From IMG/VR virus record IMGVR_UViG_3300017917_002479: a DNA stretch of 64,000 bases, one strand, 5' to 3'. The notes below the pieces were generated by a model, which was not told the origin of the DNA, did not search any database, and was given only the letters and a program-made list of their open reading frames with translations. Numbering within the stretch: position 1 is the first letter of the stretch; the number at the start of each line of letters is the position of its first letter. Below, piece by piece: positions 3 to 62,043 of the stretch. The DNA comes from an uncultured virus (IMG/VR IMGVR_UViG_3300017917_002479). Its lineage: Duplodnaviria; Heunggongvirae; Uroviricota; Caudoviricetes. The translations under genes were made by a program, and so were the position numbers.

Positions 3-1055
3 GCTCGGCAGCTTGGCCGACGACAGGACCGCATCGAGCATGGGCTTCATGGTCGCATCGACGGTCAGGTCGAGCGGCTTGAGGCCAGCCACGGTGGGCG
101 TGGCTTCGGTTTCACTGACCTCGTCATCTTCGGCGAGAGCCTCATCGGCGGACATGGCCTTCATCTGCGCGAAGATGAACGCGTCGAGGATCGCCTTGCT
201 ATTGGCATCCAGCATGTCCGTGAAGGTGGACATGGCGTCGCCGACCGCAGGCAGGGTCATGCTCGACAAGATGGCGGAGACGGGACCGACCAGCGCCTTG
301 GCCGCGTCGGCAGGCAACGAGCTGTTCGACGAATACCAGTTGAGGAAGCGGCCAGTGACGGTCTGGATGCCCTCGTCGTTCACGTGGTCGTGGATCTTCT
401 GGCCCACCTCGCTGTGCGCCATGAGCGCAGCGAAGACGTTGGCAAGCATGATCGGGTTGTTGGTCAGCGGCAAAGACTTGGACATGGTGGTTCCTTTCGT
501 GGTGGAAGTGGCTGCGGTGGTGGAAGTGGGAGCGGCAGCCGCGCTCCCTGAACGCAAGGCCGTGGCCTTGGCGAAGAGCTTGCGTGAGGACACAGACCCA
601 AGCCGAGCAGTCAGCCGGTCGAGCCAAGCGGAGTCGTCGAGCATGCGGTGGGCGTCGACCTCGGCGGTCATTGCGTCACGCAAGGACATAAGTGCGCCCG
701 TGCCGAACGCCTCGTCAGCGGGCTTGGTCCCGTTCATATGCCACGCAAGACGCACCCAACCATCGGAGTGCAGGCAGAATGCCTCAAGCACGGGCACTGG
801 CAGGACGTCACGCACACCCGCGACGCTATCGCGGGTTGAGCCGGGCAACCTGCCCAACCGCTTGCCCCGCTGGATGCGCTCAACGAGAGCCTTCTTGCGG
901 GCGTCTGGCGAGTCTGGCGAGGCGGATATGCGCTCGTTACACGCCACCTCAAAGGCGGCGCGCAGCAGAGCGCGGCGTTCCTCGAAGTTGTCGAGGTATT
1001 GCGCGGCAACAGCCAGCGCGACGTAATCGGGCGGCGGAATAGAGCCGGTCGACAT
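3..1055 (-). CDS. Partial ORF running off the left edge; probably the N-terminal part of the CobS-like AAA+ ATPase whose C-terminus is at the right edge
   Basis: Uninterrupted minus-strand frame from ATG 1055 (RBS GAAAGGA) to the edge; not in the ORF track because it has no stop. Second in-frame ATG at 485 with its own GAAAGGA RBS. Confidence 0.6.
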   Translation of the reverse strand, partial: MSTGSIPPPDYVALAVAAQYLDNFEERRALLRAAFEVACNERISASPDSPDARKKALVERIQRGKRLGRLPGSTRDSVAGVRDVLPVPVLEAFCLHSDGWVRLAWHMNGTKPADEAFGTGALMSLRDAMTAEVDAHRMLDDSAWLDRLTARLGSVSSRKLFAKATALRSGSAAAAPTSTTAATSTTKGTTMSKSLPLTNNPIMLANVFAALMAHSEVGQKIHDHVNDEGIQTVTGRFLNWYSSNSSLPADAAKALVGPVSAILSSMTLPAVGDAMSTFTDMLDANSKAILDAFIFAQMKAMSADEALAEDDEVSETEATPTVAGLKPLDLTVDATMKPMLDAVLSSAKLPS

Positions 1056-1721: not shown

Positions 1722-1758
1722 GAAATTAACTCCTGTGGTGTGTGGTGGGTGTCGCAGG

Positions 1759-2653: not shown

Positions 2654-2698
2654 GTGTGCGTCTCCTGTGCGTGGTGGAAGTGGGGAAGCCCCAACGCG

Positions 2699-3183: not shown

Positions 3184-3590
3184 GTGTGCGTCTCCTGTGT
3201 GGTGGGCGGGTGAAATCCCGCTGGCTGGCCCCGCCAACCGAGGCGAGGCTTGCCGCCCGGAACAATCCCTTCGGGACTGCGCACCTGTGCGCACACAATG
3301 CGCACACGTAACGCGTGTGAGACACCACCAGAAAATCCCATGTTTTCAGCCTCTTACAGAGGCTGAAATGGGAATGTTCAGGGTTTGTTCTCAAATCGGT
3401 GGCTCCCCTTTCAGGGGAATGGTTTGCCCCGAATTGTGCGGGTTTCCGCGTGCCGTGTGCCGCAAACGTGCCGTTTCGGCCCCCGAAGGGGGGCGGGGCA
3501 GGGTGGCCCCCGCCGACGCGTTCGGGCATAATCGGAGTCACCCGGTCGCTCGCGATACGCGGGTAATTTTGAAAACGTCCAAGGCTCAAC

Positions 3591-38348: not shown

Positions 38349-38553
38349 GAAGAAGCTCCTCGGTGGTGGAGCCTTCCGTCTGTCTCACTTCTGTGACACC
38401 GTCAAGGTCCGGCCGCGCCCACAAGGGGATGCGGCCGAGGCGCTTGCGCGGCGGGGGCAATGCCCCCGCCTTCACGTATCGTTGGAATGTGCTGCGCGAA
38501 ACCTGCATGTATTCAGCAGCTTGGTCCGCGCGCAGCCAGTGCGCGCCGCTCAC
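38296..38553 (-). CDS. xis: Excisionase / AlpA-like HTH protein
   Basis: AAEYMQVSRSTFQRYVKAGALPPP...W winged HTH, overlapping the int start. Confidence 0.8.
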   Translation of the reverse strand: MSGAHWLRADQAAEYMQVSRSTFQRYVKAGALPPPRKRLGRIPLWARPDLDGVTEVRQTEGSTTEELLRAYELKAQERGADPTRH

Positions 38554-39212
38554 CGCCGGACCATGCGTTCCAGTTCGGCGATGCGAGTGCGGAGCTTGCC
38601 AATCTCTTCGCCGAGCGACTTGGTCAGACCAGCAAACTCGTCCTCGATCCGCAACTCCAGCATGGTCACGTCGTCCTTGATCGCTTGCAGCTCCTTCGGC
38701 TCCTTGAGGTCGCCGAACGCCTCACGGCGGAAGGCTTCAACCACGCTGAGCGACAGTCCAACTTCCTTGGCCACGCGCTCGTCCGAGTAGTCGTTGATGT
38801 AGGCACCCTCTTTGTCGTCGAAGTGGTCGGTCAGCATGCGCATCAAGCGCGCCTGCGCACGAATGCTGTCCTTCGAGGGCAGAGGCGGCGTGAGCGGGGT
38901 CACGTTGCTGGCGGGTTCGGCCATAATATCTTCTTCCTTCTCCGTGGTGGTGGGTTCGCGTCTTGCGGCGACGCAGGCCGGGCATGTGTCAGGCTCCAAA
39001 TCCCAGCCTTTCTGCCGGAACTTCTTGCCAATGACGTCTTCGGGTAGGATCGCCTTCATCAAGATGACGTCGGCGCTCTCACACTTTGAGCAGATAATCT
39101 CGGCGTGGTTGCGCATCACTCCGCCAATCATGCCTTTGTAAATGCGCCTTGAGCCTTCGCCGATATTGAAGCCATGTGTGAAGGCTATTGGGTGGTGTCC
39201 TCGTTTTCCCAT
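38550..39212 (-). CDS. Hypothetical protein with N-terminal Zn-finger; possible internal start at 38924
   Basis: CSKC...CPAC; C-terminal HTH-like and coiled-coil part; two RBSs. Confidence 0.6.
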   Translation of the reverse strand: MGKRGHHPIAFTHGFNIGEGSRRIYKGMIGGVMRNHAEIICSKCESADVILMKAILPEDVIGKKFRQKGWDLEPDTCPACVAARREPTTTEKEEDIMAEPASNVTPLTPPLPSKDSIRAQARLMRMLTDHFDDKEGAYINDYSDERVAKEVGLSLSVVEAFRREAFGDLKEPKELQAIKDDVTMLELRIEDEFAGLTKSLGEEIGKLRTRIAELERMVRR

Positions 39213-39235
39213 AATGCTCCCCTGTGGTGGAAGGG

Positions 39236-41235: not shown

Positions 41236-42102
41236 TTATTCTCCTTCGCTCGTGGTGGGTTTCTTGGCGACTTCTTCCGCCTTCGAGGTGCCACCCTCGA
41301 CGGCGCTCACGTAGCGCTCGTAAGCCTCCGGGGTCATCGCCATGCGCTGATGAAGTTGGAGGATATTGGCCGAACGCTCGATAGGCTTGAGGCGACGGTG
41401 CGGGTCACGGGTCTTCCCGTGCCAGCCCTTCACTTCCTCGGTGATGATGAAGCGGGCAACGCGAGCGTCGATGCCGCCGCTGCCCTCAACTTCGGCCGTC
41501 TTGCGGATGCCGCAGAAGACGTGATCGAAGAGGGCGGGAATGTGCTTCGCCACCTTCTTCATCTTGACCATCGGCCAGTAGTTTGTCTGGCCGTTGTCAT
41601 CATCTTCTTCCATGGCCAGAGCCGTGACGAGAACGTGAACCGGCAGATCGCGGACCCACTTGAGCGCGCCAATCATGGCCCGTTCGTAGTCGCCCCACAC
41701 GGCAAAGCCGTCCATCTTCTTGCCACTGGACGAGGCGGCGTCTTCGTGAAGCTGCTGGAAGTGCGCCAGCGCGCGCTCCGACATCTCGGTGACGCTGTCG
41801 ATGCCGATCCAGTTGAAGCCCGCCGCCTTGAGGTCGACGTCCTTGAGCATCCGAATGATGCCCATGAACGAGTAGACCCCCTTGTCCGGGTCGTGCTTGC
41901 CGTCCCAAGACGAGAACGGCAGGAAGTCGATGTCGCAATCCGAGACCGAAGAGAGGCCGCTTTCGCCCGAGATAATCAGGCCGCGTCCATACAACTCGCG
42001 GTAGTAGCGGAACTGGTAGGTCTTGCCGAAACCATGGTGCGCATAGAGCAGGGTCTTATGCGCATGCGCGTCGGCATCCTTGGTGTTCAGAGTTTTGAAC
42101 AC
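41236..42102 (-). CDS. Sak4-like AAA_24 ATPase (recombinase)
   Basis: LLYAHHGFGKT, IGIDSVTE, KTRD; adjacent to SSB and exonuclease. Confidence 0.85.
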   Translation of the reverse strand: MFKTLNTKDADAHAHKTLLYAHHGFGKTYQFRYYRELYGRGLIISGESGLSSVSDCDIDFLPFSSWDGKHDPDKGVYSFMGIIRMLKDVDLKAAGFNWIGIDSVTEMSERALAHFQQLHEDAASSSGKKMDGFAVWGDYERAMIGALKWVRDLPVHVLVTALAMEEDDDNGQTNYWPMVKMKKVAKHIPALFDHVFCGIRKTAEVEGSGGIDARVARFIITEEVKGWHGKTRDPHRRLKPIERSANILQLHQRMAMTPEAYERYVSAVEGGTSKAEEVAKKPTTSEGE

Positions 42103-42631: not shown

Positions 42632-42665
42632 TAGGGTGTCCTTTTTTGTGGTGGGGGTATTGCTG

Positions 42666-42740: not shown

Positions 42741-42989
42741 ATGGCGCAAAATCACAGGCTTAACGTCGGTCGGCTCATTGCGGACCTCGGTGGCCCGGCG
42801 CACGTAGCGGAAGCGATTGGGGTGTCTCGGACCACGCCCTATCGTTGGATGAAGCGCAACTTCATGTCGTCCCCGACGATGGAGAAGTTGAAGGACGCTT
42901 TCCCCGCGCTGGTCCTCGAAAATTACTTCACCACCACGGGAGATAATAATGTCCACGCCTACGGAGAGCCTGCACGACGCGGCTCTTGA
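42741..42989 (+). CDS. Cro-like HTH transcriptional regulator
   Basis: LGGPAHVAEAIGVSRTTPYRW; divergent from the recombination operon. Confidence 0.8.
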   Translation: MAQNHRLNVGRLIADLGGPAHVAEAIGVSRTTPYRWMKRNFMSSPTMEKLKDAFPALVLENYFTTTGDNNVHAYGEPARRGS

Positions 42990-45447: not shown

Positions 45448-45472
45448 CCTACTCCCACCACAGGAGTAACCC

Positions 45473-45890: not shown

Positions 45891-45928
45891 CATCTACACA
45901 CCCACACATGGCACGCGTGGGGTGGTCA

Positions 45929-46225: not shown

Positions 46226-46415
46226 GCCTTTCATCCCCTACACCACCTCCCTCTACCCGTTCGAGCAGGCCCGCGCTCGCATCGGCGAAGCGGCCTACCG
46301 CCGCAGCATCCTGTTCTCCTACGTGATCCCTGTCCTTGCAGCCGAACTCGCGCCTCCTCCATCCCTCCGCGCCCACCTCCTCTCTTCCACCACCCTCAAC
46401 CGGAGCCTCTTTTAA
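46215..46415 (+). CDS. Small hypothetical protein
   Basis: GAGG RBS; coupled to neighbours. Confidence 0.4.
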   Translation: MTSKPFIPYTTSLYPFEQARARIGEAAYRRSILFSYVIPVLAAELAPPPSLRAHLLSSTTLNRSLF

Positions 46416-46618: not shown

Positions 46619-46631
46619 CAGGAGCCTGACA

Positions 46632-47030: not shown

Positions 47031-47040
47031 GGAACCCGCC

Positions 47041-47295: not shown

Positions 47296-47337
47296 CCCCT
47301 TAACGTCCTCGACAACCACCATTGTCGAGGACGTTTC

Positions 47338-47894: not shown

Positions 47895-47897
47895 TCC

Positions 47898-48329: not shown

Positions 48330-48337
48330 AAACCACC

Positions 48338-49330
48338 ATGGCTGGCCCCTTCCACAACGCAATCTGCGGCACCACCGCAAGTTCCCCCGGAACCGGCGCG
48401 TTCACCCCGAACGCCGCCGCCCCCGGCTTCCTTGCTTGGTCCACGGTCCCAACAGGTTGGATCGGCCTCGTGCGTTACCAAGACGGCTCCAACTGGGAAC
48501 TCGCCTTCGGCTACTGGAACGGCACCACCATCAGCCGACCCTCCAACATCCTCGCGTCTTCGTCCGGCTCGCGTCTCTCCCTCTCGGCCTCGGCGACCGC
48601 CTCCCTCGTTGTCTCCGGCTTCAATGTCGCCCCCGCCATCCTTGGCGGGGACCGTGGCTGGATACCCCTCATCAACGGCACCACGCCCACGCCCATCGGG
48701 GTTGCGGCGGGAACCTTTACTGGCACCAACGCTGCGGTCACACCGACAACGACCAACTTCCTGACTGAGCAGCCGCGCTCTCAAATCACCAGCGCGACCA
48801 CAGCCAACGCCCAATCAGCTTTCGCTAACGGCACCAACTCCGTCTTGGTCAACACCACAGCCGGTCGTGGTGGCTGGATGGCCATGGCCCGGTTCGGTGC
48901 GTCCCAACTTCCATCTGGCCCCCGCCTCTTCGTCGGTGTGACCTCGACCAGCCTTGTCGGCAACACGGGCGAACCCAGCGCCCTCACCGCCAACTACGCG
49001 ACCTTCGCCAAGGACTCGACCGACACCAACATCCAGCTCCTCACGAACTCCAACGCTGGCACCGGAACCAAGATCGACACCGGCATTGCAATGGCCGCGA
49101 ACGACTGGTTCCACGCGCAACTCTGGACGCCCCCCGGCTCGACCACGGTCCATGGCCTCCTCATCAAAATGAATGGCGGCTCGATCTACTACGGCTCCAC
49201 CTCCACCGACACGCCCGTCAACGGTGCAGCCATGGCTCCCAATGTGGTCAGCGGCCTGTCCGCCACCACCGGCACCGCCGTGATCTTCCATTTCGGCGGC
49301 TTCACCTTCCGCAACGGCGGCCTCCTCTAA
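48338..49330 (+). CDS. Beta-rich virion protein (fibre/spike)
   Basis: Gly/Thr/Ser-rich 330 aa in the structural cassette. Confidence 0.55.
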   Translation: MAGPFHNAICGTTASSPGTGAFTPNAAAPGFLAWSTVPTGWIGLVRYQDGSNWELAFGYWNGTTISRPSNILASSSGSRLSLSASATASLVVSGFNVAPAILGGDRGWIPLINGTTPTPIGVAAGTFTGTNAAVTPTTTNFLTEQPRSQITSATTANAQSAFANGTNSVLVNTTAGRGGWMAMARFGASQLPSGPRLFVGVTSTSLVGNTGEPSALTANYATFAKDSTDTNIQLLTNSNAGTGTKIDTGIAMAANDWFHAQLWTPPGSTTVHGLLIKMNGGSIYYGSTSTDTPVNGAAMAPNVVSGLSATTGTAVIFHFGGFTFRNGGLL

Positions 49331-50241
49331 TGTGGGGCATAAAAGGGTTTGGCGTCGAGCCATTCGCCTCGACCCCCATCTCCTCTGGAACGCCCACCAC
49401 AATCTCGGTGACGGCGGCGACCCTCGCCGCCTCCCCCCTCGTAATCACGCTTAACGCCAGCCACCTGATCGGCGTCACACCCCAAAGCCTCGTCGCCGCT
49501 CCTCAAGCGACGCTAACCAACGCGCGTCGCTCCGTCCTCGTCACCACCTTGTCCGCCCTCTACACTGGGCAGACGATCACTCGTCTCACCGCCAACCGCG
49601 TCGTCGTCACCCCCCAAACCGCCGCCCTCACTGGCCAGCCAATCAACCTCAACAAGCGCCTCCTCGTGGGCGTCACCGTCCGCACGCTCCCGGCCACCCC
49701 CCAACCCATCCTAACCAACGCGCGTCGCTCCATCACCGTGACGCCCACCTCCCTCACTGCCACCCCCCAAACCGTCTTCACCAACCGGGGCACGTCCGTC
49801 TTCGCCTTTGTGCGCACGGCTACCCTCACGCCCCAGCCCATCACCGTAAACGCGCGCCGCTCGATCACCATCACGACGGCCACCCTCACTGCCACCCCTC
49901 GCCTCATCCTCCGTTCGCTGCGCGTCCCCGTCACCGCGCGCACGGCCAGCTATGCCCCCCAAACCACTGGCCTCAACCGCCAGACCCGCATCGCTGTCAC
50001 CGTCCGCACCCTCGCCTCCACCGCCCTCCCCATCACTCTCAACGCGCGCCGCAACATCGTGGCCACCACCCGCACGGCCACCTACACTGGCCAGCCCATA
50101 ACCCTTCGTCTCGACCGGCGCGTCTCCGTATCCCCTGCCCTTGGCCTCTACGAGGCTCCCTTCATCCTCGCCCAAGTCAACTTCGACGACGGCCTCTGGC
50201 AGGATCGCGTGGCCAACCTGCGCATGACGCTGTCCCCCTAG
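49330..50241 (+). CDS. Thr-rich repeat virion protein
   Basis: About 23-aa repeats such as SITVTPTSLTATPQTVFTNR; FGVEPFASTPIS start motif. Confidence 0.6.
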   Translation: MWGIKGFGVEPFASTPISSGTPTTISVTAATLAASPLVITLNASHLIGVTPQSLVAAPQATLTNARRSVLVTTLSALYTGQTITRLTANRVVVTPQTAALTGQPINLNKRLLVGVTVRTLPATPQPILTNARRSITVTPTSLTATPQTVFTNRGTSVFAFVRTATLTPQPITVNARRSITITTATLTATPRLILRSLRVPVTARTASYAPQTTGLNRQTRIAVTVRTLASTALPITLNARRNIVATTRTATYTGQPITLRLDRRVSVSPALGLYEAPFILAQVNFDDGLWQDRVANLRMTLSP

Positions 50242-50280
50242 CGGGACGACAGCCCCCACCATGCGGCGCATGGTGGCCCT

Positions 50281-52998
50281 ATGACCGGCGCAATCTCCCC
50301 CTTCAACCTCAAGCTCCGCAACCGTCGTTCTGGCACCACGACGCTCCCCGCCGACTTCTTCGTCACCAACGACGCTGAGCTGGCCTCCGTCTTGGCTCTC
50401 GGTGCGGCCACGCTGTCCGGCAAGACCGTCGCAATGACCGGCACCTTCACAACGCCGAACTTCAACGTCAAACCAGCCTCTACTCTGACCTTCCGCAGCC
50501 TTAATCCTGCGTCCCCGGCTGTCCTGATCCGCACCAAGTTGAACGGCTCGGGGAACATCAAGTTCCAAGACCTGAAGATGGTCACGGATTGCTTCACCGA
50601 TAACGGATCGGGCAACTCGGGCTTTGAGGCGATCTTCTACAACTCGGGAGCTTTCGGCAGCCACACATTTTCAAGCTGCATCATTCGTGGCGGCTACGGC
50701 GGTCCGGGGTCGGTGGGAGCAGTCTACAACAACGACTACAACCCCACCGCCACCTACCCAGAATACGCCTGCATCATCCCGACTTTCACGGCGGGCGCTA
50801 TCACCGCGCTTTCCTGCACTGCGCCAAACAACTATGTTGGCGGCCTGCTGGCTGACGGCACGGGCTATGCGTGGAGCGTCAACACCAACACCTCGACCAA
50901 CGGCGGGGTAACTTGGACCGTGCCTGCGACTGGGACTTTCGATGTTGTTTCGGGCCTGATTACCAACTTGGTCATCACAAACGGCGGTGCCTCCAATGCC
51001 GGGACCAATCCGGGGCTTGGCACACAGGTCAAGACGATCACTTGGGCCGCGCAGCGCCCGTTCATTAACGTGACGGCAGGCGGCGTGGGCGCATCCGGCG
51101 GTATCACTTGGGACGCCGGAACGCAGATTTTCGAGGATTGCACCTTCTCGGACCTGCGCGACGGCATCAAGCACAGCATCGCCGCGCCCGGTAAGTTCAT
51201 CGCCCGTCGCAACACCTTTATCCGCCTCTACCACGACGCTATCGTCCCCGCCTTGGCGGGTTCGGAAGCGGGTGCTGATCGCACGATTACCGACAACTTT
51301 GTGACTCAAGTCATGGCGCTGCCGACCGACCCGTTCGACCCCCACGCCGACGGGGTGCAGACCTACATGGGAACGTCGACGCCGAGCGATTGGCCGAACG
51401 TCACGATCGAGCGCAACGTCATGCTCATCGGCAATACGCGCGGGGTGGCGCAAGGCATCTTCATGGAGAGCCTGACCGGCAAGTATTACACGAACCTGCG
51501 CATCGTCGGGAACATGGTCCTGTCGGCTTACGACATCAACCAGATGGCGCTGCCTGATACCAACGGGGCTTACGTCTATCGCAACACCTTTGTTCGCATG
51601 GTCCCTGACGATCCGCAGAACAGCGGGCGCGATGCGACCCTCCGCTACAATAGTGGCCGGACGGCAATCGGCAACAGCTACATCGCCAAGAACTTCTACG
51701 AAGCGGTGAGCCTGTCGGGTGTCTATGTCGGCAGCGGAAACGTGCAGGTTACTCGCGGCGACAACACCGATTACAACGCGAAGTTTGCTAGCCCCCCGAC
51801 TTATGCAGGCGGGGCTGGTTCGTGGCCCACCACCAAGGCGCAGGCACTGGCGGCGTTTGCTCCTGAGACGGCTTACATCGGAACGGGCGCGGGTGGTTCA
51901 GACGGGTATCTGGACTACACGAACAACACCACCGATCTAACCAAGGAGCCGGTGTTTGTCGCCTTCGTGGACCTGACCGCGCAGACACCCTCGTCAAACG
52001 TTTCTTCGGGCTGGGTGCAAATCCTCGGCGGCCCTGCGACGGGCTCTATCTCGATCACCGGGGGAACTTACCAGTTTGCCGATGACAGCAGTGGGACCAA
52101 TGCCACGGCTGCGACTTCGGCCAGCGCGACTTACACGCGCGGCAAGTTTCTGCGCCTGAATGTGACCAACTCGGCCAGCGGCCTGACCACCACGACCGCC
52201 ACGGTCACGCTTCAGGGCACGGGTTCGGCGGCAAGCCAGAACTATTCGTTCGCCTCGACCACGGTTTCGACCTTTGTTCGCCCGGTGGTCCTGCTCGACA
52301 CGGCCACCCCGGACCTCTTCCGCGCGACCGGCGCTACCACGATGGGCAGCGACAGCTTCCTCGGCACGATTGCCATTTGGGGCCTCAAGGTCAACGGCAA
52401 CCCGGCTGCACAGACGCAAATCTTCAACGTGTCGGCAGGTTCGGCGACGATCCAGATTGCCATCGACGCAAGCGGCCAGCTTCGCGTCAACCTGCGCAAC
52501 GCCGCTGCCTCTACGATTGCCCAGTTGTTCACGCCCAACACCTTCTGCAACAACGTCGCGCACGACCTGCTCATCAGCTTCGACACCAACGACACCTCGG
52601 CAACCTCCGGCCTCCACTTCTACCTCGACGGTGTCCGCATCACCTCTGGCCACTCGTGGATCAGCGCGTCCTCCCAAGTCGCCTACAGCCGCTCCCTCTC
52701 CAGCTACCAAGTTGGCCCCGGCGCTTCTCAAAAGGACTACGAAATCGCCGGTCTCTACATTCACCCCGGCGTCCGCGTGGACTTTACCAACTCTGCCAAC
52801 CGCACAGCCTTCACCCTCGCCCCCTCCTCGATGGGCGTCAACGGCTCGACCCCGACCGGCTCGCAGCCCCGCTACTTCTTCGTGGGCAAGGCAGCTCAGT
52901 GGAACGACGTCGCCGGTATCAACTTCGGCTCCGGCCCCAAGTTCATCAAGGTCGGCTCGGCGGCGGCCGCCGACGTCTCTGGCAACACGTGGGCTTAA
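50281..52998 (+). CDS. Spike/depolymerase: right-handed beta-helix plus C-terminal LamG/ConA-like domain
   Basis: HADGVQ, TIERNV, QGIF, IVGN, VYRNT beta-helix signatures; HDLLISFDT...FYLDG lectin-like region. Confidence 0.7.
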   Translation: MTGAISPFNLKLRNRRSGTTTLPADFFVTNDAELASVLALGAATLSGKTVAMTGTFTTPNFNVKPASTLTFRSLNPASPAVLIRTKLNGSGNIKFQDLKMVTDCFTDNGSGNSGFEAIFYNSGAFGSHTFSSCIIRGGYGGPGSVGAVYNNDYNPTATYPEYACIIPTFTAGAITALSCTAPNNYVGGLLADGTGYAWSVNTNTSTNGGVTWTVPATGTFDVVSGLITNLVITNGGASNAGTNPGLGTQVKTITWAAQRPFINVTAGGVGASGGITWDAGTQIFEDCTFSDLRDGIKHSIAAPGKFIARRNTFIRLYHDAIVPALAGSEAGADRTITDNFVTQVMALPTDPFDPHADGVQTYMGTSTPSDWPNVTIERNVMLIGNTRGVAQGIFMESLTGKYYTNLRIVGNMVLSAYDINQMALPDTNGAYVYRNTFVRMVPDDPQNSGRDATLRYNSGRTAIGNSYIAKNFYEAVSLSGVYVGSGNVQVTRGDNTDYNAKFASPPTYAGGAGSWPTTKAQALAAFAPETAYIGTGAGGSDGYLDYTNNTTDLTKEPVFVAFVDLTAQTPSSNVSSGWVQILGGPATGSISITGGTYQFADDSSGTNATAATSASATYTRGKFLRLNVTNSASGLTTTTATVTLQGTGSAASQNYSFASTTVSTFVRPVVLLDTATPDLFRATGATTMGSDSFLGTIAIWGLKVNGNPAAQTQIFNVSAGSATIQIAIDASGQLRVNLRNAAASTIAQLFTPNTFCNNVAHDLLISFDTNDTSATSGLHFYLDGVRITSGHSWISASSQVAYSRSLSSYQVGPGASQKDYEIAGLYIHPGVRVDFTNSANRTAFTLAPSSMGVNGSTPTGSQPRYFFVGKAAQWNDVAGINFGSGPKFIKVGSAAAADVSGNTWA

Positions 52999-53004
52999 CG
53001 CATC

Positions 53005-53343
53005 ATGCTCCGCACCCTGCGCACCTTCCTCTCCGACATCCTCACGTCGACCACGACGCCGCCCGAAGGGCGCTTGCGCGCCTTCATGTCGCTCTCCCTC
53101 TTCGGCGCTGGAGTGGCGCTCACCCTCTTCTCCGCCGCCATCGTCCTCATCGTCTGGCTCGGCGCATGGTCCCCATCCACCGAAGCCCAGCGCCTCGACA
53201 TCCTCGGCAACGCCCTCATGGCCGTCTTGGGTGGCGTGATCCTCTCCCTCATCGGCCTCGCCGTGGGCGGCCCCATCGGCCGCATCTCTGGCAAGGTCGG
53301 CCTCGCCGAGTTCAACGCCTCGCAAGACAAGGACGACGCCTAA
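53005..53343 (+). CDS. Holin candidate
   Basis: Two TM segments; immediately upstream of the spanins. Confidence 0.6.
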   Translation: MLRTLRTFLSDILTSTTTPPEGRLRAFMSLSLFGAGVALTLFSAAIVLIVWLGAWSPSTEAQRLDILGNALMAVLGGVILSLIGLAVGGPIGRISGKVGLAEFNASQDKDDA

Positions 53344-53864
53344 TGCCCCCCTTCCTCGCCTCACCCGTCTGGCGCATCGCTTCCAGCGTCAGCGCCCTCA
53401 TCCTCCCCTTCGCCCTGCTGGCCCTCTTCATCGCCAACAAGCAGGCCTCCCACTTCAAGACGGCCTACGAAACCCAAGTCCAGCTCAACGCCGACCTCGT
53501 CGCCGACATCGAACTGGCCTCGGCCAAAGCCACCCTCGAAGCCACCGCCGCAGCCGAACGCAAGGCCTCTGCCTACGCCCGCATCCAACAGGAGAAGACC
53601 GATGCCCTCCAAGCCAACCTCGCTTCTGCTCGCAGCGTTCTTGCTGCTTACCGCCTGCGGGCCGAAGCCCGCTCCCCGCAAGATCAGCGTGGCTCCGGCC
53701 AAGACGGTGTGCCCCGCCCTGCCGACGCCTCCGGCGACCCTGCTCCTTCCGCTCCCGCAGATTTCGTTCTTGTCCCCGCTTCCGACCTCGACGCCTGCGC
53801 AGTCGCCTCCGTGACGGCCCAAGGCTGGCAAGACTGGTGGACCGCCGTGTCCAAAGCGCCCTGA
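53343..53864 (+). CDS. Inner-membrane spanin (Rz-like)
   Basis: N-terminal TM plus Ala-rich coiled coil, C-terminal Cys; embedded lipoprotein ORF. Confidence 0.75.
   Translation: MPPFLASPVWRIASSVSALILPFALLALFIANKQASHFKTAYETQVQLNADLVADIELASAKATLEATAAAERKASAYARIQQEKTDALQANLASARSVLAAYRLRAEARSPQDQRGSGQDGVPRPADASGDPAPSAPADFVLVPASDLDACAVASVTAQGWQDWWTAVSKAP
53602..53814 (+). CDS. Outer-membrane spanin lipoprotein (Rz1-like), embedded in +1 frame
   Basis: AGGAG RBS; signal peptide with LTAC lipobox; Pro-rich mature part. Confidence 0.8.
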   Translation: MPSKPTSLLLAAFLLLTACGPKPAPRKISVAPAKTVCPALPTPPATLLLPLPQISFLSPLPTSTPAQSPP

Positions 53865-53882
53865 CTCTGGCGCAGAAACGAA

Positions 53883-53916
53883 GAAAGGCGCGAGTCCTAA
53901 CGGACCCGCGCCTTTC
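53883..53916. terminator. Terminator between converging late and early operons
   Basis: GAAAGGCGCG...CGCGCCTTTC; the better U-tract is on the minus strand. Confidence 0.75.
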
Positions 53917-53964
53917 ACTCCCACCACAGGAGCGCCCCACAACTAGGAGCACCCCCTCCAACCG

Positions 53965-54474
53965 TCAACCTCGCGTCACAAGCGCCTGCTTGATCCGCTC
54001 CAAGACACCCAGCATGAACGTGCCACACCTCGGACCCGCCATCGTATAGCGATAGTCCCGCAGCACCTCACCACTGGCCTCGTCTTCCCTCTCGTCGAAC
54101 TCGATAATCATGATCGACTCGACGCGCTTCTCCCCACTCTGAATGGCCCTGAGCAAATCAATCAGCGCGTCCTCTGGCCGCCAGTGATCGCTCCTGTTCG
54201 TCCTGCCCACCCGCAACTCGCCAATCGTCTTGGGCGCATCCGCAAAGTCCTCAACCACATAGGGCGGCGCGTCATTCACAACGTCGCCCATGCGCAGCGG
54301 CACGACCTTGCCTTCATCCTCGTCTTGCACAGTCCTTCTCCTTCTCAAATTAGTGAGGCCTCGCATCCCCCTGAATGAAAGGATGCGAGGCCTCTGCCCG
54401 CCCATCGTTTTGGGCCGGTGGCGGGCGGACAAATCAGGCGGCTTCTGCCTCGGCCGCCACAGGTTCAGCAGCAC
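53965..54474 (-). CDS. Hypothetical protein (true start probably near 54330)
   Basis: Coding-like C-terminal part; AGAAGGA RBS before GTG CAA GAC. Confidence 0.5.
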   Translation of the reverse strand: MLLNLWRPRQKPPDLSARHRPKTMGGQRPRILSFRGMRGLTNLRRRRTVQDEDEGKVVPLRMGDVVNDAPPYVVEDFADAPKTIGELRVGRTNRSDHWRPEDALIDLLRAIQSGEKRVESIMIIEFDEREDEASGEVLRDYRYTMAGPRCGTFMLGVLERIKQALVTRG

Positions 54475-54802
54475 GAGCCAGCTTGCCCAGCATATCGCCG
54501 ATCACGCCAGCATCATCGAGCCGCCCCTTCAATTCGTTGATGATGCGCGCACCAAACTGCCAGTCGCGCTGATCCTCAACCACCTTCGACCACTCAAAGC
54601 CGAAGCCCACGATGTTCCCCTTCTCATCGACCGCAGCCAGCACATGCAGCAGCGGCACGGGCGAGACACCCACAGGCACCGGGCCAGTCGCATCAGCGGC
54701 ATCCGCCGCAATGTCCGCATCTTCAACGATGCTCGTCACTTCTTCCATCACCAGTCTCCTATTCAGCCCAGCCCGTCGTATCGGACCAGTCGCTAACCTC
54801 AC
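54434..54802 (-). CDS. Acidic hypothetical protein
   Basis: AGGAG RBS near 54756; start likely MEEVTS. Confidence 0.55.
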   Translation of the reverse strand: MRLATGPIRRAGLNRRLVMEEVTSIVEDADIAADAADATGPVPVGVSPVPLLHVLAAVDEKGNIVGFGFEWSKVVEDQRDWQFGARIINELKGRLDDAGVIGDMLGKLARAAEPVAAEAEAA

Positions 54803-55046
54803 GCATCCGGCCCAAGTCCTGCACCTGCGATGTCATGCTATCGGCAAGATCATCCATCGCATCACGCAAAAAACTGCCGGGCGAATACCCATCTGCCATG
54901 GCCCGCAACCGCTCGACCATGGCCTCAAGTTCCTCCTGCTCGTCTTCGTAGACCCGCATGTTAACCTTCCTTGAAGGGGTGTCGCTTACGACACCCAAGT
55001 CACACCTTAACCTGTCACGCATTCGTGACAAGCCCTCCCCATCCAA
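54759..55046 (-). CDS. Small protein, possibly ribbon-helix-helix
   Basis: RKVNMRVY..EQEELEAM...PGSFLRDAM; start uncertain. Confidence 0.4.
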   Translation of the reverse strand: MDGEGLSRMRDRLRCDLGVVSDTPSRKVNMRVYEDEQEELEAMVERLRAMADGYSPGSFLRDAMDDLADSMTSQVQDLGRMREVSDWSDTTGWAE

Positions 55047-55061
55047 TTTTTTTGGTGCCCT

Positions 55062-56090
55062 TTAGAGGCGTGCGACCGCCAAGCGTTTACTGTCACTGGC
55101 GAAGTGCGCGTAACGCTGCACCATCCCCAGCCCTTCGTGGCCCAGCAGCTCTGCAACCACGGCCAGCGGGGTTCCCCGCTGCACCAGCTTGCTGGCAAAG
55201 GTCCGACGCAGATCGTGAAGCTGCACGTCTTCGACCCCGGCCATGGCTGCAATCTCGGGTGCCCGCTTCGACAACGTGGACGTTGTCAGCTTATACCCAT
55301 ACCAGTTGCGAAACACCCTCCCCCGGCGCTTCTCCCATGGCACGCTCTTCTGCCCATTAAGCCGGGCTTGCTCCTGCAAGGCTTCCATGGCCCGCCCATT
55401 CAGCGGAACGTGGCGCTCCCTCACAATCCCCTCCTGCCCCTTCTTCGTGCGGAACGTAACGAACCGTGTTGCCACCCCCGTCTCCTTGTCGATGTCGACC
55501 CAAAAGTCCTTCCATTCCAGATCGCCAATCTCACCCGCCCGCGCCCCGGTCATGGCCAAGAACAGGTAGGCGGGCCACAGATACTCCGGCGTCTTGAGCA
55601 AGAACGCCTCAAGCTCCGCATCATTAAGCCACCGGAACCGACGACCCTCATCCCGTGGCTTCTTCACATCGAGCGGATCGCACCACCCACGCTCAGCCCC
55701 AAAGTTCCAGATCGCCTTGGCCACGGTCAGCGTCTTACGCACACTCGATGGCGTGCAGTGACTCATAGTCCGATCAACAAAGTCCAAGACCTGCGCCGCC
55801 GTGATCGTCTTGATCTTCCGGTCCGAAAACTCATCGAGCAACCGGCGCACATCGCACATGGTGCCCTCGCTCAGGCCCCGCTTCTTGCTCCGCAGATAGG
55901 CATCCACGACCTCATCGAAGTATTCCCGAGCGACCAGCACCTTGCCCTTGCTCGCCGCCAATTCCATCTGCAACCGCTTCTCTTCGGCCACAGCACGCAC
56001 CTCAGTCCGCAAACTCAGGCGCACGCGCATCCCATTGACGGTGCCGCGTGCATGCCAGATGCCCTTAACCTTCTTCAGTTTCAGTGCCAT
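55062..56090 (-). CDS. Second tyrosine recombinase
   Basis: TGARAGE, HDLRRTFAS, LLGH....VQRYAH. Confidence 0.9.
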   Translation of the reverse strand: MALKLKKVKGIWHARGTVNGMRVRLSLRTEVRAVAEEKRLQMELAASKGKVLVAREYFDEVVDAYLRSKKRGLSEGTMCDVRRLLDEFSDRKIKTITAAQVLDFVDRTMSHCTPSSVRKTLTVAKAIWNFGAERGWCDPLDVKKPRDEGRRFRWLNDAELEAFLLKTPEYLWPAYLFLAMTGARAGEIGDLEWKDFWVDIDKETGVATRFVTFRTKKGQEGIVRERHVPLNGRAMEALQEQARLNGQKSVPWEKRRGRVFRNWYGYKLTTSTLSKRAPEIAAMAGVEDVQLHDLRRTFASKLVQRGTPLAVVAELLGHEGLGMVQRYAHFASDSKRLAVARL

Positions 56091-56508
56091 CGTCTCCACC
56101 ATACCTGTAGAGCGGCGCATAAGGATCGTCCTTGCGCCACTGATTGTCCCACGTCTTCGGCAGGCCCCCGCTCCACCGCATGTATTCTTCCGGGTTCGTC
56201 GCATCGAAGCGGGCCTTCGCCACCACCACGACACTGGCCCGGTTATGCACCCCGAACTTGGCAAAGAGGCTGCGCACATAGACCTTGGCCGTGTTCACGG
56301 TCACGCCGAACCGCTCGGCGATCTCGGCGTTGCTCGCCCCCCGCAGCAACATCTGCAAGGCGGCATGCTGCTTGGTCGTCAGCGTCGGCAGCGGCGGAGC
56401 CAAGTCCGCACCACCACACACCCGCTCAAGCGCCATCACCCGCCCCTCAAGCCGCGCAATCTCTATGCGCACGGCCGTCAACTCCTCACGAATGTTGTCC
56501 TGTTCCAT
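56065..56508 (-). CDS. LuxR-type HTH regulator
   Basis: LTTKQ...L..GASNAEIAERFGVTVNTAKVYVRSLFAKFGVHNR. Confidence 0.85.
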   Translation of the reverse strand: MEQDNIREELTAVRIEIARLEGRVMALERVCGGADLAPPLPTLTTKQHAALQMLLRGASNAEIAERFGVTVNTAKVYVRSLFAKFGVHNRASVVVVAKARFDATNPEEYMRWSGGLPKTWDNQWRKDDPYAPLYRYGGDDGTETEEG

Positions 56509-56581
56509 GGTCCTAGTCCTTTGTTTCCCAGCGGGCCGACCCTACACCCCTTTCCTCGTCTTGTCACGCCAATGAGACACC

Positions 56582-57268
56582 TCAAGCCACCTCCACCATG
56601 GTCAGCTTCCTGCCACGGAAGCCTGCGCCCGTGTCCAGCCACGTCTGATTTCCTATGGTTACAGCCCGCTCAACCACGTTGTGCCCATAGTAAACGTGAT
56701 CGACACCCCGCATCGGCAGGATCGAGTCGCCCCGCTCCAAGGCCTCGACCATATCCCTCGACCACATGGCGTGATTGCGCAGTGCCTTGCGCTCTCGTCG
56801 CTCAGCGTTGGCCATCCGCCACCGAAAGTTGTTCCAATCCAACCCATAGGCATCAGCATGAACCAGCCCGATGCGCCGCCCACTCGGACTGTTCACCGTG
56901 ATCGTGACCGGCAGTGTGGCCGCAAGACGGCAGGCCGCTCGGCGTTGTTCATCCGCCAGCTCGGCAAACCACGCACCACCGTTGGCCACGTGATAGCCCG
57001 CCGCCTTCGGGTTCTCGCTGGCCTCAAGCATCATGGCCTCGTGATTACCCATGACCGAGTGGAACCACGGCTCGTTCAGCAGCGACAAGACGCCCATGCT
57101 GTCCGGCCCCCGGTCCACCAGATCCCCCAACGCAAACAGGTGGTCGCGGTCGGCAATGAAGCCGACCCGCCCCAACTCCTGCATCAATTGGTCGAGGCAC
57201 CCATGCACGTCACCCACGACGAACATGCGCGCCCCTTCCAGCCACTCAATGTTCAGGTCTCTTTCCAT
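56582..57268 (-). CDS. Ser/Thr protein phosphatase (lambda NinI/PphA-like metallophosphoesterase)
   Basis: GDVHG, GDLVDRGPDS, GNHE, VHA, GH, LDTGA. Confidence 0.92.
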   Translation of the reverse strand: MERDLNIEWLEGARMFVVGDVHGCLDQLMQELGRVGFIADRDHLFALGDLVDRGPDSMGVLSLLNEPWFHSVMGNHEAMMLEASENPKAAGYHVANGGAWFAELADEQRRAACRLAATLPVTITVNSPSGRRIGLVHADAYGLDWNNFRWRMANAERRERKALRNHAMWSRDMVEALERGDSILPMRGVDHVYYGHNVVERAVTIGNQTWLDTGAGFRGRKLTMVEVA

Positions 57269-57323
57269 CGTCCTATCCTTCCTGCTGCGCCGGGCCGCGC
57301 TTGCGCGGCCCGGCGAAACCCGA

Positions 57324-58172
57324 TCAAGCCCGACCAACCGTAGCCATGTTGGCCAGATCGAGCGGACCACTCACGACCTCGTCGTCGTCGTCCTCGACCA
57401 AGTTGTTCACATCACGCCCCATGGCCCGCATCAACTGGCCCATGGCCCGAGCCTGCGCCTCGGCCTGCAAGGCGTTCTCGTAAGCCTCCTTGATCGTCTC
57501 GATTACGACGCCCTTCGAGCGGCTCTTCATCACGTCCTCGTCCCAATCAATCGGGGCAAGCAGGCTGATGCTACCATCCCTGATGATAGCCAAGACGGGG
57601 GTGTTGCGATGCGCTCCCTTCTTCTCGTTGATTTCGTAGCAGCGCTGCGTGATCTGTTCCTTGACCATGCCCAGCGCAATGCGGTTCACTTCCATCGGGA
57701 ACAGGTTGGCGAACATGTCGGAGAACCACAGCGACAGCGGCCACAGGTTGCCGGGCCAGCGCCGACCAACCCGCAGCACCACACCCATGGCGTAGAGCGC
57801 AACGACCAGCCCAAGCCGCTCCCTGAACCGGCGCAGCCCATCACGAAAGCCCATGGCCTCGCCATGCGTGTCAGTGCATTCGTCGTCGAGGCAGGCGTGC
57901 GACCAGCTCCGCCACATGGCCGAACGCATGTCGCTGCGCACCATCCGAAGCTGCTCACTCAGCGCCAGCCACCCGTCGTGGAAGAGCGCCTTGGTCTTCT
58001 CGTAATGTTCCTCGCTGTTCGACATGGGGTTGCCGAGCATCTGGATCATGTCGCTCACGCTCTTGACGTGCGGGGTGCCCCGCTCCTCGTTCTTGCGACG
58101 CGCCTCGTCGAGGCTGATGTTGGAGTTCACGTCTTGGGTGTGCGGCCCCTTGTTCTTCTTACGCATCTGCAT
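57324..58172 (-). CDS. Hypothetical protein
   Basis: ACAGGAG RBS; 282 aa. Confidence 0.6.
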   Translation of the reverse strand: MQMRKKNKGPHTQDVNSNISLDEARRKNEERGTPHVKSVSDMIQMLGNPMSNSEEHYEKTKALFHDGWLALSEQLRMVRSDMRSAMWRSWSHACLDDECTDTHGEAMGFRDGLRRFRERLGLVVALYAMGVVLRVGRRWPGNLWPLSLWFSDMFANLFPMEVNRIALGMVKEQITQRCYEINEKKGAHRNTPVLAIIRDGSISLLAPIDWDEDVMKSRSKGVVIETIKEAYENALQAEAQARAMGQLMRAMGRDVNNLVEDDDDEVVSGPLDLANMATVGRA

Positions 58173-58189
58173 TCTCCTGTGTGGTGGGA

Positions 58190-58621
58190 TTAGCGAAGCG
58201 AAATGCCGTCAGGCAGGTTCGCTTCAAGGATTTGGTTGAGGGTTTCGATGGCCTCGTTGCCACGCCGCCGCATGTCCTCCATCTCGGGCGTGTCCTTGGG
58301 GTTCGGCTTGGGATTGAACCCGACCTGCGCCAGCCCGAACTTGGTGACGCACATGTAGATCGGGCCACGTCCAGCATCCGCCTCCTGCTTGGCCGTCTTG
58401 AACATGGAAATCAGGCCAAGCAATTCGGTGTTGCCAATGGCAGCGAGTGCCTCGGTCAGGCGGGGCACGTCGTCGTCCTCGACTTCGGCGAGTGCATCCA
58501 TCACCGCCTTGATGCGGGGGTCATACGACCCCCACTTGTCCATCACTTCGACCAGCGCTTTCATCATGCTGACGGCATCACGGCTCACGTCACGGGCAAA
58601 GCCCTCATTCTTCTCACTCAT
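58190..58621 (-). CDS. Hypothetical protein
   Basis: AAGGAG RBS. Confidence 0.65.
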   Translation of the reverse strand: MSEKNEGFARDVSRDAVSMMKALVEVMDKWGSYDPRIKAVMDALAEVEDDDVPRLTEALAAIGNTELLGLISMFKTAKQEADAGRGPIYMCVTKFGLAQVGFNPKPNPKDTPEMEDMRRRGNEAIETLNQILEANLPDGISLR

Positions 58622-58650
58622 GGTATTCTCACTCCTTGTGGTGGGTTGGA

Positions 58651-59274
58651 TCAGTCGTTGTTCAGGTCACGCACCTCAGCCTCGATGGTCTTGGCCACGT
58701 CGGCGCTCAGGTCCGGCGTCTTGGGCTTGGGAGCCGGAGCCGAACGTGTGTAGCGGGGCGACGAGTATACGATGCGCCGCCCCCCGATGCTCTCACCCAG
58801 CGAGGGTGCAAAGCCGGGGCGAGGCGGAGCCGAACGCGCATCGTTCACGATCACGGGATGCTCGCTGACGCTGCGGTTCAGGTGGGTGTAGGCACGGGCC
58901 ACACGCAGGGCAGCGCCACTCGCAGCCCGCTCGAGTGCACGCGGCTCGTGTGCCTGCGCCACGAGGCTGGCCTCACGGGACAGCGCCAGCCCCGTGCCAG
59001 CCAAGCTACGCCCGAAGATGTAGGCGGCAGGCTCGTAGCACACGAGCCGACCATCGTCGGTGCGGGCCGTGACCAGCACCCCATAGAGGCCGGTCTTGCT
59101 GTCGCCGTCACGATGGACGATGCGCGCCTGCCACCAGAGGTTGCCCTTGCGCACGACGTAGACGTCGAGGTCCGAGACCGGCGACTCGAACGGCTTGAAG
59201 GTGATCGGGGTGCCCTCGGGGATGACGCCCGAAATCAGGTGGTCGCTGCGGTGTGCGGTGCTTGCAGTGTTCAT
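58651..59274 (-). CDS. Hypothetical protein (MNTASTAH...)
   Basis: Leader motif upstream; coding-like composition. Confidence 0.6.
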   Translation of the reverse strand: MNTASTAHRSDHLISGVIPEGTPITFKPFESPVSDLDVYVVRKGNLWWQARIVHRDGDSKTGLYGVLVTARTDDGRLVCYEPAAYIFGRSLAGTGLALSREASLVAQAHEPRALERAASGAALRVARAYTHLNRSVSEHPVIVNDARSAPPRPGFAPSLGESIGGRRIVYSSPRYTRSAPAPKPKTPDLSADVAKTIEAEVRDLNND

Positions 59275-59318
59275 GGTTGTTACTCGCTCTTGTGGTGGTG
59301 GGAGTGGTGAGGTGGGGG

Positions 59319-59900: not shown

Positions 59901-60105
59901 GGTTCCTTCTGTGGTGGTGACGCCTCGGAGTGGCGTCGATGATGGGGACCAAGGCGCGCAGCGCCTCGGTGTCGGAGTGACGGATACGCTTCTGCTTCAC
60001 GGCCATGGCGAACGCTTGCCACCATTGCATCGAACGGTTGGGGGCAAGCGCCCGCCAGCTTGGCCGGAAGACGGCGCGTCGCTGGCGGCGCTCGGCGGGG
60101 GTCAT
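59887..60105 (-). CDS. Small basic hypothetical protein
   Basis: ATGA overlap with the CobT-like stop. Confidence 0.45.
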   Translation of the reverse strand: MTPAERRQRRAVFRPSWRALAPNRSMQWWQAFAMAVKQKRIRHSDTEALRALVPIIDATPRRHHHRRNHAHD

Positions 60106-62015: not shown

Positions 62016-62043
62016 GGTATGCTTACTCCTGTGGTGGTGGGTT

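What the first reader, a model, noticed from the sequence alone, without database searches (positions are those of the whole stretch)
53883..53964. Orphan antisense copy of the phage's own leader/RBS motif in a terminator-bounded 3'UTR: candidate genome-wide translational switch sRNA
Seen: the 16-mer ACTCCCACCACAGGAG at 53917-53932 is identical to the leader+RBS at 45451-45466, yet no start codon or ORF follows it on the plus strand. A second RBS-like unit (CCCCACAACTAGGAGC) follows it. On the minus strand this is the 3' end of the long early operon, reading GCUCCUAGUUGUGGGGCGCUCCUGUGGUGGGAGU directly before a terminator with a U-tract, so it is complementary to the CCACCAC(A)GGAG leaders found before about 15 early and middle genes. 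Inference: a 3'UTR-derived sRNA that pairs with and silences a whole leader-defined regulon, or, if read on the plus strand, a decoy for a leader-binding protein. I know of no description of such a system in this kind of phage.
Basis: partly seen in the sequence, partly recalled or inferred. Interest (0 to 1): 0.8.

Follow-up and report, generated by a model that had tools for sequence, protein, structure and literature searches.

The report
Phage anti-leader RNA before a terminator
This bacterial virus puts the same short signal in front of about half of its early genes and keeps one mirror-image copy at the tail of an early message, which a related virus has preserved too, so the tail RNA may be a single brake that dampens all those genes at once, though no RNA has been measured.

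Summary
The window is a temperate CRP-810-type phage. CCACCAC precedes 17 of 36 early/middle genes and 0 of 31 late genes. One start-less copy (53917-53932) lies in the convergent gap; on the early strand it is the complement, directly before a 15-bp terminator. The one independent relative covering the gap (a Sphingomonadaceae prophage; four-fold sites 58% identical) keeps 15 of these bases unchanged beside the same terminator, again with no usable start. All 21 early-strand base pairs are kept, 3 by two-sided changes. That argues for selection on an early-strand RNA and against a decaying relic. Predicted pairing prefers motif leaders to late leaders: strongly in the relative (0 of 100 shuffles), modestly here (3-12 of 100). 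Cluster K1 mycobacteriophages show the same design: their unexplained Start-Associated Sequences have one reverse copy, which I find in a hairpin loop where late transcription is reported to start. But it is altered or missing in 10 of 15 Cluster K phages checked. Best reading: a GcvB-like antisense brake on a phage leader regulon (about 0.5). The evidence is two genomes and no expression data.

The parts
53917..53932 (+). Start-less copy of the leader+SD motif; 53918-53932 (15 nt) identical in relative G003
53917..53933 (-). Anti-leader hairpin on the early strand: 6-bp stem (53933-53928 with 53922-53917) with a 5-nt G/U loop (53927-53923); the loop is the predicted seed, the 5' arm the anti-SD. 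In the window a competing 11-bp hairpin with the second unit is the minimum-energy fold and also leaves the seed largely free
53883..53916 (-). Intrinsic terminator hairpin, 15 bp with one conserved G-U pair; 2 pairs changed on both sides in G003
53870..53882 (-). U-rich terminator tail, 12 of 13 nt identical in G003 (more conserved than termination alone explains; unexplained)
53936..53951 (+). Second, degenerate RBS-like unit; not conserved in G003, which has its own shorter partial repeat
53965..54330 (-). Last early-strand gene (121 aa, no family; 46% identical ortholog in G003); its stop codon bounds the 3' UTR
54434..54748 (-). 104-aa gene, no family; ortholog in G003 (40%)
54759..54959 (-). 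66-aa gene, no family; ortholog in G003 (44%)
55004..55031 (-). Possible sigma-70-type promoter for the last three genes and the anti-leader (by eye, 8 of 12 consensus; similar -35 context in G003; not reported by the scan)
   Evidence: inference
53343..53864 (+). Last plus-strand gene, converging on the element (173 aa; no family hit, 'spanin-like' is my label; 42% identical in G003)
45451..45466 (+). Leader identical to the orphan over 16 nt, before a 102-aa gene with an HNH-endonuclease-like N-terminus; SD held in a 6-bp hairpin
42931..42937 (+). CCACCAC leader of primase-polymerase
46387..46393 (+). CCACCAC leader of gene at 46415
62034..62040 (-). CCACCAC leader of CobT-like gene
59911..59917 (-). 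CCACCAC leader of gene at 59900
59295..59301 (-). CCACCAC leader of gene at 59274
58638..58644 (-). CCACCAC leader of gene at 58621
58181..58187 (-). CCACCAC leader of gene at 58166
42648..42654 (-). CCACCAC leader of gene at 42631
41252..41258 (-). CCACCAC leader of SSB-like gene
39224..39230 (-). CCACCAC leader of gene at 39212
38947..38953 (-). CCACCAC leader of gene at 38924
38363..38369 (-). CCACCAC leader of the tRNA-Arg-associated integrase
3199..3205 (-). CCACCAC leader of gene at 3183
2671..2677 (-). CCACCAC leader of gene at 2653, 25-30 nt behind a terminator of the same sequence family as 53883-53916
1742..1748 (-). CCACCAC leader of gene at 1721
499..505 (-). CCACCAC leader of gene at 485

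Best explanation
The 3' end of the early-strand transcript is a trans-acting antisense RNA, either the mRNA tail itself or a fragment cut from it, bounded by the strong terminator. Its exposed G/U seed pairs with the C/A-rich CCACCAC element just upstream of the Shine-Dalgarno of about 17 early and middle genes. Pairing can then extend through the anti-SD arm over GGAG. This would lower translation, and perhaps stability, of the whole leader-defined set, as GcvB silences CA-rich enhancers. Shown: the sequence arrangement, the leader enrichment, conservation and strand-specific pairing in two phages. Inferred: that the RNA accumulates, that CCACCAC is a translation enhancer, that pairing represses, and when it acts (at the end of the early phase as negative feedback, or in the lysogen from the possible promoter at about 55030). 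A likely origin is a 'reverse terminator + leader + gene' cassette that lost its gene, its cis-antisense RNA being kept for trans targets.
For: 15 of 15 nt are conserved in G003, while four-fold sites are 1124 of 1922 identical (0.585^15 = 3e-4) and the flanking genes are 42-46% identical in protein. The 63-nt block has 9 differences, so it is not a recent transfer, and in every frame only 1-2 of 6-7 changed codons are synonymous, so it is not coding. On the early strand 21 of 21 pairs hold in both phages, 3 by two-sided changes, one of them in the anti-leader hairpin, where the window's plus strand has an A-C mismatch. Hairpin energies: -9.7 and -7.8 kcal/mol on the early strand against -3.9 and -5.7 on the other. 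In G003, median pairing is -15.1 with 15 motif leaders against -5.2 with 11 late leaders, and 0 of 100 shuffles reach either that median or that difference. In the window it is -12.4 against -5.6, with 3 of 100 shuffles reaching the difference. Post hoc: the base after GGAG is a purine in 13 of 14 G003 leaders, where the anti-base is U, and a pyrimidine in 7 of 13 window leaders, where the anti-base is G; p=0.013. Parallel in Cluster K1 phages. GcvB precedent: PMC3879156, abstract.
Against: Only two independent genomes: the third copy is 100% identical to G003 over 7860 nt, and the 97%-identical phage G001/G002 is a fragment that does not cover the gap. With two sequences the pair count cannot beat its shuffle control (70 of 500). 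In the window 12 of 100 composition-matched shuffles bind the motif leaders as well as the real RNA, and the major capsid leader ranked second in a whole-RNA cofold. The terminator's outer stem and tail are as conserved as the 15-mer, so the whole block may be conserved for a reason other than pairing. Hairpin+motif+ATG cassettes are common in phages (5 of 10 and 6 of 23 start-bearing sites). In Krueger and Ekdilam the Cluster K loop has changed while the 16 SAS copies each have not. No RNA data could be had.
Confidence: 0.5

Rival explanations
1. Relic. The block is a 'reverse terminator + leader' cassette whose plus-strand gene was deleted. The terminator is kept because the early strand needs it; the leader survives by drift or by conversion from the other copies and does nothing.
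For: Hairpin+motif+ATG cassettes occur in G003 itself (47083), in the window (2727 and 2677) and in unrelated viral contigs (5 of 10 exact and 6 of 23 variant start-bearing sites have a 5' hairpin, against 1 of 10 and 1 of 23 on the 3' side). G003 has an open plus-strand frame of 156 codons 18 nt behind the GGAG. Conversion would also explain the matching base after GGAG.
Against: 15 of 15 nt are kept at a divergence where neutral sites are 58% identical, while the sequence right after GGAG is unrelated in the two phages. The kept CTC before the core is not a regular part of the leaders but closes the hairpin. The 156-codon frame lies wholly opposite a conserved gene, has no family hit at E up to 1, has G at codon position 1 in 0.24 against 0.50 for the real gene, and has no start in the window.
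Confidence: 0.2
2. Structural 3' end. The small hairpin plus terminator plus tail is a conserved RNA structure that stabilises or processes the early mRNA end, or binds a protein, without pairing to leaders.
For: Outer stem (10 bp) and tail (12 of 13 nt) are as conserved as the motif. Two more terminators of the same sequence family lie at 2727 and 1842. Pairs are conserved on the early strand.
Against: A structural role does not require the loop and stem to be the exact complement of the phage's own leader core (chance about 5e-6). The two sister terminators carry no anti-motif on their 5' side.
Confidence: 0.15
3. Sense-strand or DNA site. The motif works as read on the plus strand (a decoy in read-through late RNA for a leader-binding protein or a host sRNA) or as a DNA site (operator, recombination site).
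For: The plus strand also folds well (z=-6.0). Only TTTC follows the hairpin on the plus strand, so read-through is possible. A second integrase-like gene lies 1.1 kb away, and in CRP-810 the att site lies by a phage tRNA-Thr (PMC11288001).
Against: No plus-strand terminator after the motif. The conserved G-U and the changed pair work on the minus strand only. No tRNA or Rfam match lies here. The attachment site is the tRNA-Arg fragment at 37207-37278, where the G003 prophage record breaks relative to the window. The motif is asymmetric and tied to start codons.
Confidence: 0.15

Closest known systems
Start-Associated Sequences (SAS) of Cluster K mycobacteriophages (PMC3203893, passages of section 15 read; PMC11373665, section 19 and passages read)
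   Same: An asymmetric SD-containing repeat before 11-19 non-structural genes, conserved beyond what 16S pairing needs, function unknown. Four K1 phages have exactly one reverse copy with no gene. I found that copy in the loop of a covarying hairpin, in the gap where Adephagia late transcription is reported to begin.
   Different: Unrelated sequence, phage family and host phylum. There the anti-copy is near the 5' end of late RNA, here in a 3' UTR before a terminator. The passages read give the reverse copy no function. The match is imperfect or absent in 10 of 15 Cluster K phages examined.
GcvB and ACA/CA-rich translation enhancers (PMC3879156, abstract read)
   Same: One RNA pairs with a C/A-rich element immediately upstream of the SD in many mRNAs. 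The predicted seed here targets the same kind of site in the same position.
   Different: GcvB is a host, free-standing sRNA acting on unrelated host genes. Here seed and targets are copies of one phage motif, and the RNA is a 3' UTR. Enhancer activity of CCACCAC is untested.
Phage antisense RNAs P22 sar and P1/P7 c4 (PMC12197685, passages read)
   Same: Phage-made RNA that blocks translation of phage mRNA by pairing at the ribosome-binding site.
   Different: Both act on the antirepressor mRNA only. No Rfam match of any family at this locus. Here about 17 targets lie on both strands and no gene lies opposite the RNA.
3'-UTR-derived base-pairing sRNAs of bacteria (recalled, no call)
   Same: Seed between a stop codon and an intrinsic terminator with a U-rich tail.
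   Different: Processing site, internal start and Hfq binding are unknown here; the targets are the phage's own genes.
CRP-810-type phage family (PMC11288001, parts 2 and 3 of 6 read)
   Same: Capsid 66% identical to CRP-810; same order CobS-CobT-LuxR-integrase-small genes converging on the resolvase arm. G003 is the paper's Sphingomonadaceae prophage.
   Different: The parts read mention no leader motif or non-coding RNA. The leader set was seen only in the window and G003; 11 of 18 other family records (several partial) had no hit and 7 had 1-6 loose hits.

Membership tests
3'-UTR-derived trans-acting base-pairing sRNA | Ends in an intrinsic terminator with a U-rich tail | tested here: met
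3'-UTR-derived trans-acting base-pairing sRNA | Conserved seed complementary to translation-initiation regions elsewhere | tested here: met
   15 of 15 nt kept in G003; 17 and 15 motif leaders; two genomes only
3'-UTR-derived trans-acting base-pairing sRNA | Pairing more specific than composition alone gives | tested here: inconclusive
   G003 0 of 100 shuffles; window 12 of 100 on strength and 3 of 100 on specificity
3'-UTR-derived trans-acting base-pairing sRNA | Accumulates as a discrete RNA, represses targets, binds an RNA chaperone | not testable with these tools
   no RNA data for this window
Start-Associated Sequence (Cluster K type) | Asymmetric SD-containing repeat next to starts of non-structural genes | tested here: met
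   17 of 36 against 0 of 31
Start-Associated Sequence (Cluster K type) | A single start-less copy opposite to local transcription | tested here: met
Start-Associated Sequence (Cluster K type) | The 13-bp Cluster K consensus at a fixed distance from the start | tested here: not met
   different sequence, and CCACCAC lies at a variable distance from GGAG: analogous, not homologous
c4/CI antisense RNA family | Match to an Rfam covariance model | tested here: not met
   the whole window at E up to 5 gave 2 hits, neither here
sar-type cis-encoded antisense RNA | Overlaps the RBS and start of a gene on the opposite strand | tested here: not met
   no usable start behind the motif in the window; in G003 only a frame 18 nt away, judged an antisense shadow
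attP site | tRNA-derived core at the prophage boundary | tested here: not met
   no tRNA here; tRNA-Arg fragment and G003 break point lie at about 37.2 kb
CRP-810-type phage | Core genes (capsid, TerL, portal, Prim-Pol, AAA ATPase, PD-(D/E)XK nuclease) and conserved order | tested here: met

The most novel reading that the evidence does not exclude
Temperate phages can mark a whole class of early genes with a shared start-associated leader and keep one antisense copy in a later-made RNA that turns the class down together. This phage pair and the Cluster K1 mycobacteriophages reached that design independently, which would explain what Start-Associated Sequences are for and add an RNA-only early-gene shut-off to phage biology.
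Probability: 0.35. Interest if true: 0.85.

Novelty: new variant of a known kind. Interest (0 to 1): 0.66.

Why it matters
The phage antisense RNAs in the review passages I read act on one phage mRNA or on host genes (PMC12197685). A single RNA aimed at a motif that the phage itself has placed before half its early genes would be a regulon-wide translational control without a protein. It also makes an old question testable: the role of Start-Associated Sequences was left open in 2011 (PMC3203893) and was still called ill-defined in 2024 (PMC11373665). Adephagia and M. smegmatis are a tractable system, and the reverse SAS sits in a hairpin loop in the gap where late transcription is reported to start. 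My searches for such a system in print found none (listings only, open-licence library only).

Tried and rejected
Coding explanation: rejected, with 1-2 synonymous of 6-7 changed codons in all six frames and stops in three frames. attP/tRNA end: rejected. Known RNA family: none. Repressor identity for the 66-aa gene: I first read it as ribbon-helix-helix, but Pfam, PHROGs and the Atlas gave nothing and the G003 ortholog lacks the putative strand, so a 'lysogeny operon' stays a guess. More relatives: scans with the 121-aa gene (0 loci in viral contigs; 4 weak loci in metagenomes, none with the motif), the last plus-strand gene (3 loci without the motif), the integrase (6 distant loci, not examined further), LuxR (9 loci, 2 of them G003 and its identical copy) and the capsid (80 viral and 28 genome loci) gave only G003. 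A terminator-end+motif scan gave 13 loci, 2 of them G003 copies. I do not count them as support: start-less non-coding sites had a hairpin in 4 of 22 exact and 1 of 12 variant cases, and in G026 the copy pairs in cis with the next RBS. The variant scan (110 loci, 86 distinct sites) gave no further case. Leader/anti-leader covariation in Cluster K: not found. CsrA/RsmA decoy and T4 RegB cleavage (recalled, no call): set aside because the GGA lies in a stem and none of the 36 window proteins scanned matched such families. No RNA-seq evidence was available. Supplementary figures of PMC3203893 (S3) and tables of PMC11288001 were not seen and may bear on the Cluster K site list and on further relatives.

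Full report
What the window is. The capsid is 66% identical to that of Roseobacter phage CRP-810. Terminase, portal, primase-polymerase, Sak4, nuclease, RusA, CobS/CobT-like, LuxR-like and two integrase genes lie in the order of that family (PMC11288001, parts 2 and 3 of 6 read). The closest complete relative is G003 (capsid 85% identical), which that paper lists as a Sphingomonadaceae prophage. Its record breaks at the tRNA-Arg fragment behind the integrase at 37293-38348, so that is the attachment site. The finding lies elsewhere, at the point where the minus-strand early arm and a plus-strand arm converge.

Observation. The 16-mer occurs exactly twice (45451, 53917), with 7 matches at up to 3 mismatches against 0.59 expected. 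CCACCAC lies within 36 nt of the start in 17 of 36 early/middle genes and 0 of 31 late genes, p=2.6e-6 (the classes are my assignment; the 7-mer occurs 48 times in the window in all). At 53917 no start follows within 56 nt. On the minus strand the stop of the 121-aa gene (53965) is followed by 48 nt, a 15-bp hairpin and a U-rich tail, the best terminator-like site of 44500-64000. The plus strand is C-rich here, but at that composition the 12-nt core has a chance of about 5e-6 in this UTR.

Conservation. G003 has the same leader motif before about 15 genes and the same start-less copy at the same junction. Of 63 aligned nt, 9 differ: 7 in the inner stem and loop of the terminator, none in the 15-mer. 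Four-fold degenerate sites of 20 orthologous genes are 1124 of 1922 identical, which gives 3e-4 for 15 unchanged bases; the two flanking proteins are 42% and 46% identical. The block is not coding in any frame. Read on the early strand, all 21 pairs of the small hairpin and the terminator hold in both phages, 3 by two-sided changes. With two sequences this does not beat the shuffle control (70 of 500), though it beats all slid versions. The conserved G-U in the terminator and the changed pair of the small hairpin work on the early strand, where the window's plus strand has A-C, and the small hairpin is more stable there in both phages. So selection appears to act on early-strand RNA. Limits: the third copy found is identical to G003; the 97%-identical phage is a fragment without this region; of 18 other family records, several partial, 11 had no motif leader and 7 had 1-6 loose hits. 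The 16-nt match to 45451 and the second RBS-like unit are not conserved.

Pairing. With opening costs included, the G003 UTR pairs with its 15 motif leaders at a median of -15.1 kcal/mol and with 11 late leaders at -5.2; 0 of 100 shuffles of its 5' part reach the median or the difference. In the window the values are -12.4 (17 leaders) and -5.6 (31 leaders); 12 of 100 shuffles reach the median and 3 of 100 the difference. In a smaller run 3 of 14 shuffles reached the real median. In the window an extra hairpin hides the anti-SD, so most predicted duplexes are 8-12 bp on CCACCAC just upstream of the SD, the geometry described for GcvB on ACA enhancers (PMC3879156, abstract). A whole-RNA cofold was less selective, with the capsid leader second of 67. 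A post hoc hint of co-adaptation: the anti-base facing the position after GGAG is U in G003, where 13 of 14 leaders have a purine, and G in the window, where 7 of 13 have a pyrimidine; p=0.013. Conversion from sense copies would give the same picture.

The relic rival. Hairpin+motif+ATG cassettes are common: G003 47083, window 2727, and 5 of 10 and 6 of 23 start-bearing sites in two viral scans. This is the probable origin of the element. G003 also has a 156-codon plus-strand frame 18 nt behind the GGAG. It lies wholly opposite the conserved 133-aa gene, has no family hit, a codon pattern unlike the real gene, and no start in the window, so I treat it as an antisense shadow. A dead leader should not stay 15 of 15 while the bases after it diverge fully. 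However, the terminator stem and tail are equally conserved for reasons I cannot give, which keeps a purely structural role open.

A parallel in print. Cluster K mycobacteriophages carry a 13-bp Start-Associated Sequence before 11-19 non-structural genes, function unknown, and four K1 phages have one copy in the opposite orientation without a gene (PMC3203893, passages). In the right arms of 4 phages I found that copy in Anaya and Adephagia but not in Pixie or TM4. It lies in a non-coding gap and, on the transcribed strand, in the loop of a long stem. Adephagia late transcription is reported to start in that gap (PMC11373665, section 19). The gap matches 182 records. Of 15 phages examined, 5 have the anti-SAS loop at up to 2 mismatches, 5 have the hairpin with an altered C/U loop, and 5 showed neither in the stretches fetched. 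The 10 hairpins give 14 consensus pairs, 4 with two-sided changes. Against the parallel: Krueger and Ekdilam keep 16 SAS copies each although their loop has changed. Three other unrelated viral contigs have the same 15-mer without a start beside a hairpin, but at a rate not clearly above background, and one of them pairs in cis. They are leads only.

Verdict. The element is real and conserved. It most likely works like a multi-target antisense sRNA aimed at the phage's own start-associated leader (about 0.5), ahead of a relic (0.2), a structural 3' end (0.15) and a sense-strand or DNA site (0.15). It is not a member of the c4 or sar types by the tests made, and membership among 3'-UTR sRNAs cannot be settled without RNA data. 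Searches of the held library found no description of such a system (listings only). Timing (end of the early phase, or the lysogen via the possible promoter at about 55030) is inference.

Noticed in passing
window 37207-37281 (-), behind integrase 37293-38348: 5' fragment of a tRNA (Arg by my reading of the anticodon loop) forming the likely attP; a 35-nt word is shared with G003, whose prophage record breaks here.
   Followed up: partly
window 55062-56090 (-): A second tyrosine recombinase, the ortholog of the CRP-810 integrase that has a tRNA-Thr att site beside it; no tRNA is found beside it here, so its role in this phage is open.
   Followed up: no
window 2727, 1842 and 53913 (-): Three terminators of one sequence family (same outer stem, followed by a U-rich tail); the copy at the junction is conserved in G003 far beyond the need for pairing.
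   Followed up: partly
window about 45440, 45880, 42670, 55000, 1770: Short inverted repeats of the form ACACC...GGTGT overlap several promoter-like sites and may be operators (by eye); a 17-nt word at 42664 and a 26-nt word at 1737 are shared with G003.
   Followed up: no
window 54000-58000: The last minus-strand genes have a G-rich coding strand, opposite to the C-rich coding strand of the plus-strand genes; none of the last six carries the leader motif here, whereas three genes of this module do in G003.
   Followed up: partly
L198:29843-29910 (Anaya) and L199, L321-L327, L331: Conserved, covarying hairpin with a C/U-rich loop complementary to the SAS in the gene 92-93 type gap of Cluster K mycobacteriophages; candidate anti-SAS RNA, not described in the passages read.
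   Followed up: yes
L203, L206, L212, L223 and many others of L202-L320: Roughly half (by eye) of the 119 viral hits of the 15-mer belong to one conserved hairpin repeat in low-GC large phages, lying among tRNA genes in the 3 loci checked, with no Rfam match of its own; apparently unrelated to this finding and unexplained.
   Followed up: partly
L340:8985-9125 (G026): An anti-leader copy about 80 nt upstream of a motif-led gene pairs in cis with that gene's RBS around an inner hairpin (z=-4.6): a candidate cis translational switch.
   Followed up: partly
L266/L240 (G024) and L219 (G025): Start-less 15-mer on the opposite strand, between a stop codon (endolysin-like and RusA-like genes by my reading) and a hairpin, in unrelated phages with a few C/A-rich leaders.
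   Followed up: partly
window 45473-45781 (+): Gene with only the N-terminal part of an HNH endonuclease family (phrog_374); its SD is held in a 6-bp hairpin and the 16-mer may be the very 5' end of its transcript.
   Followed up: no
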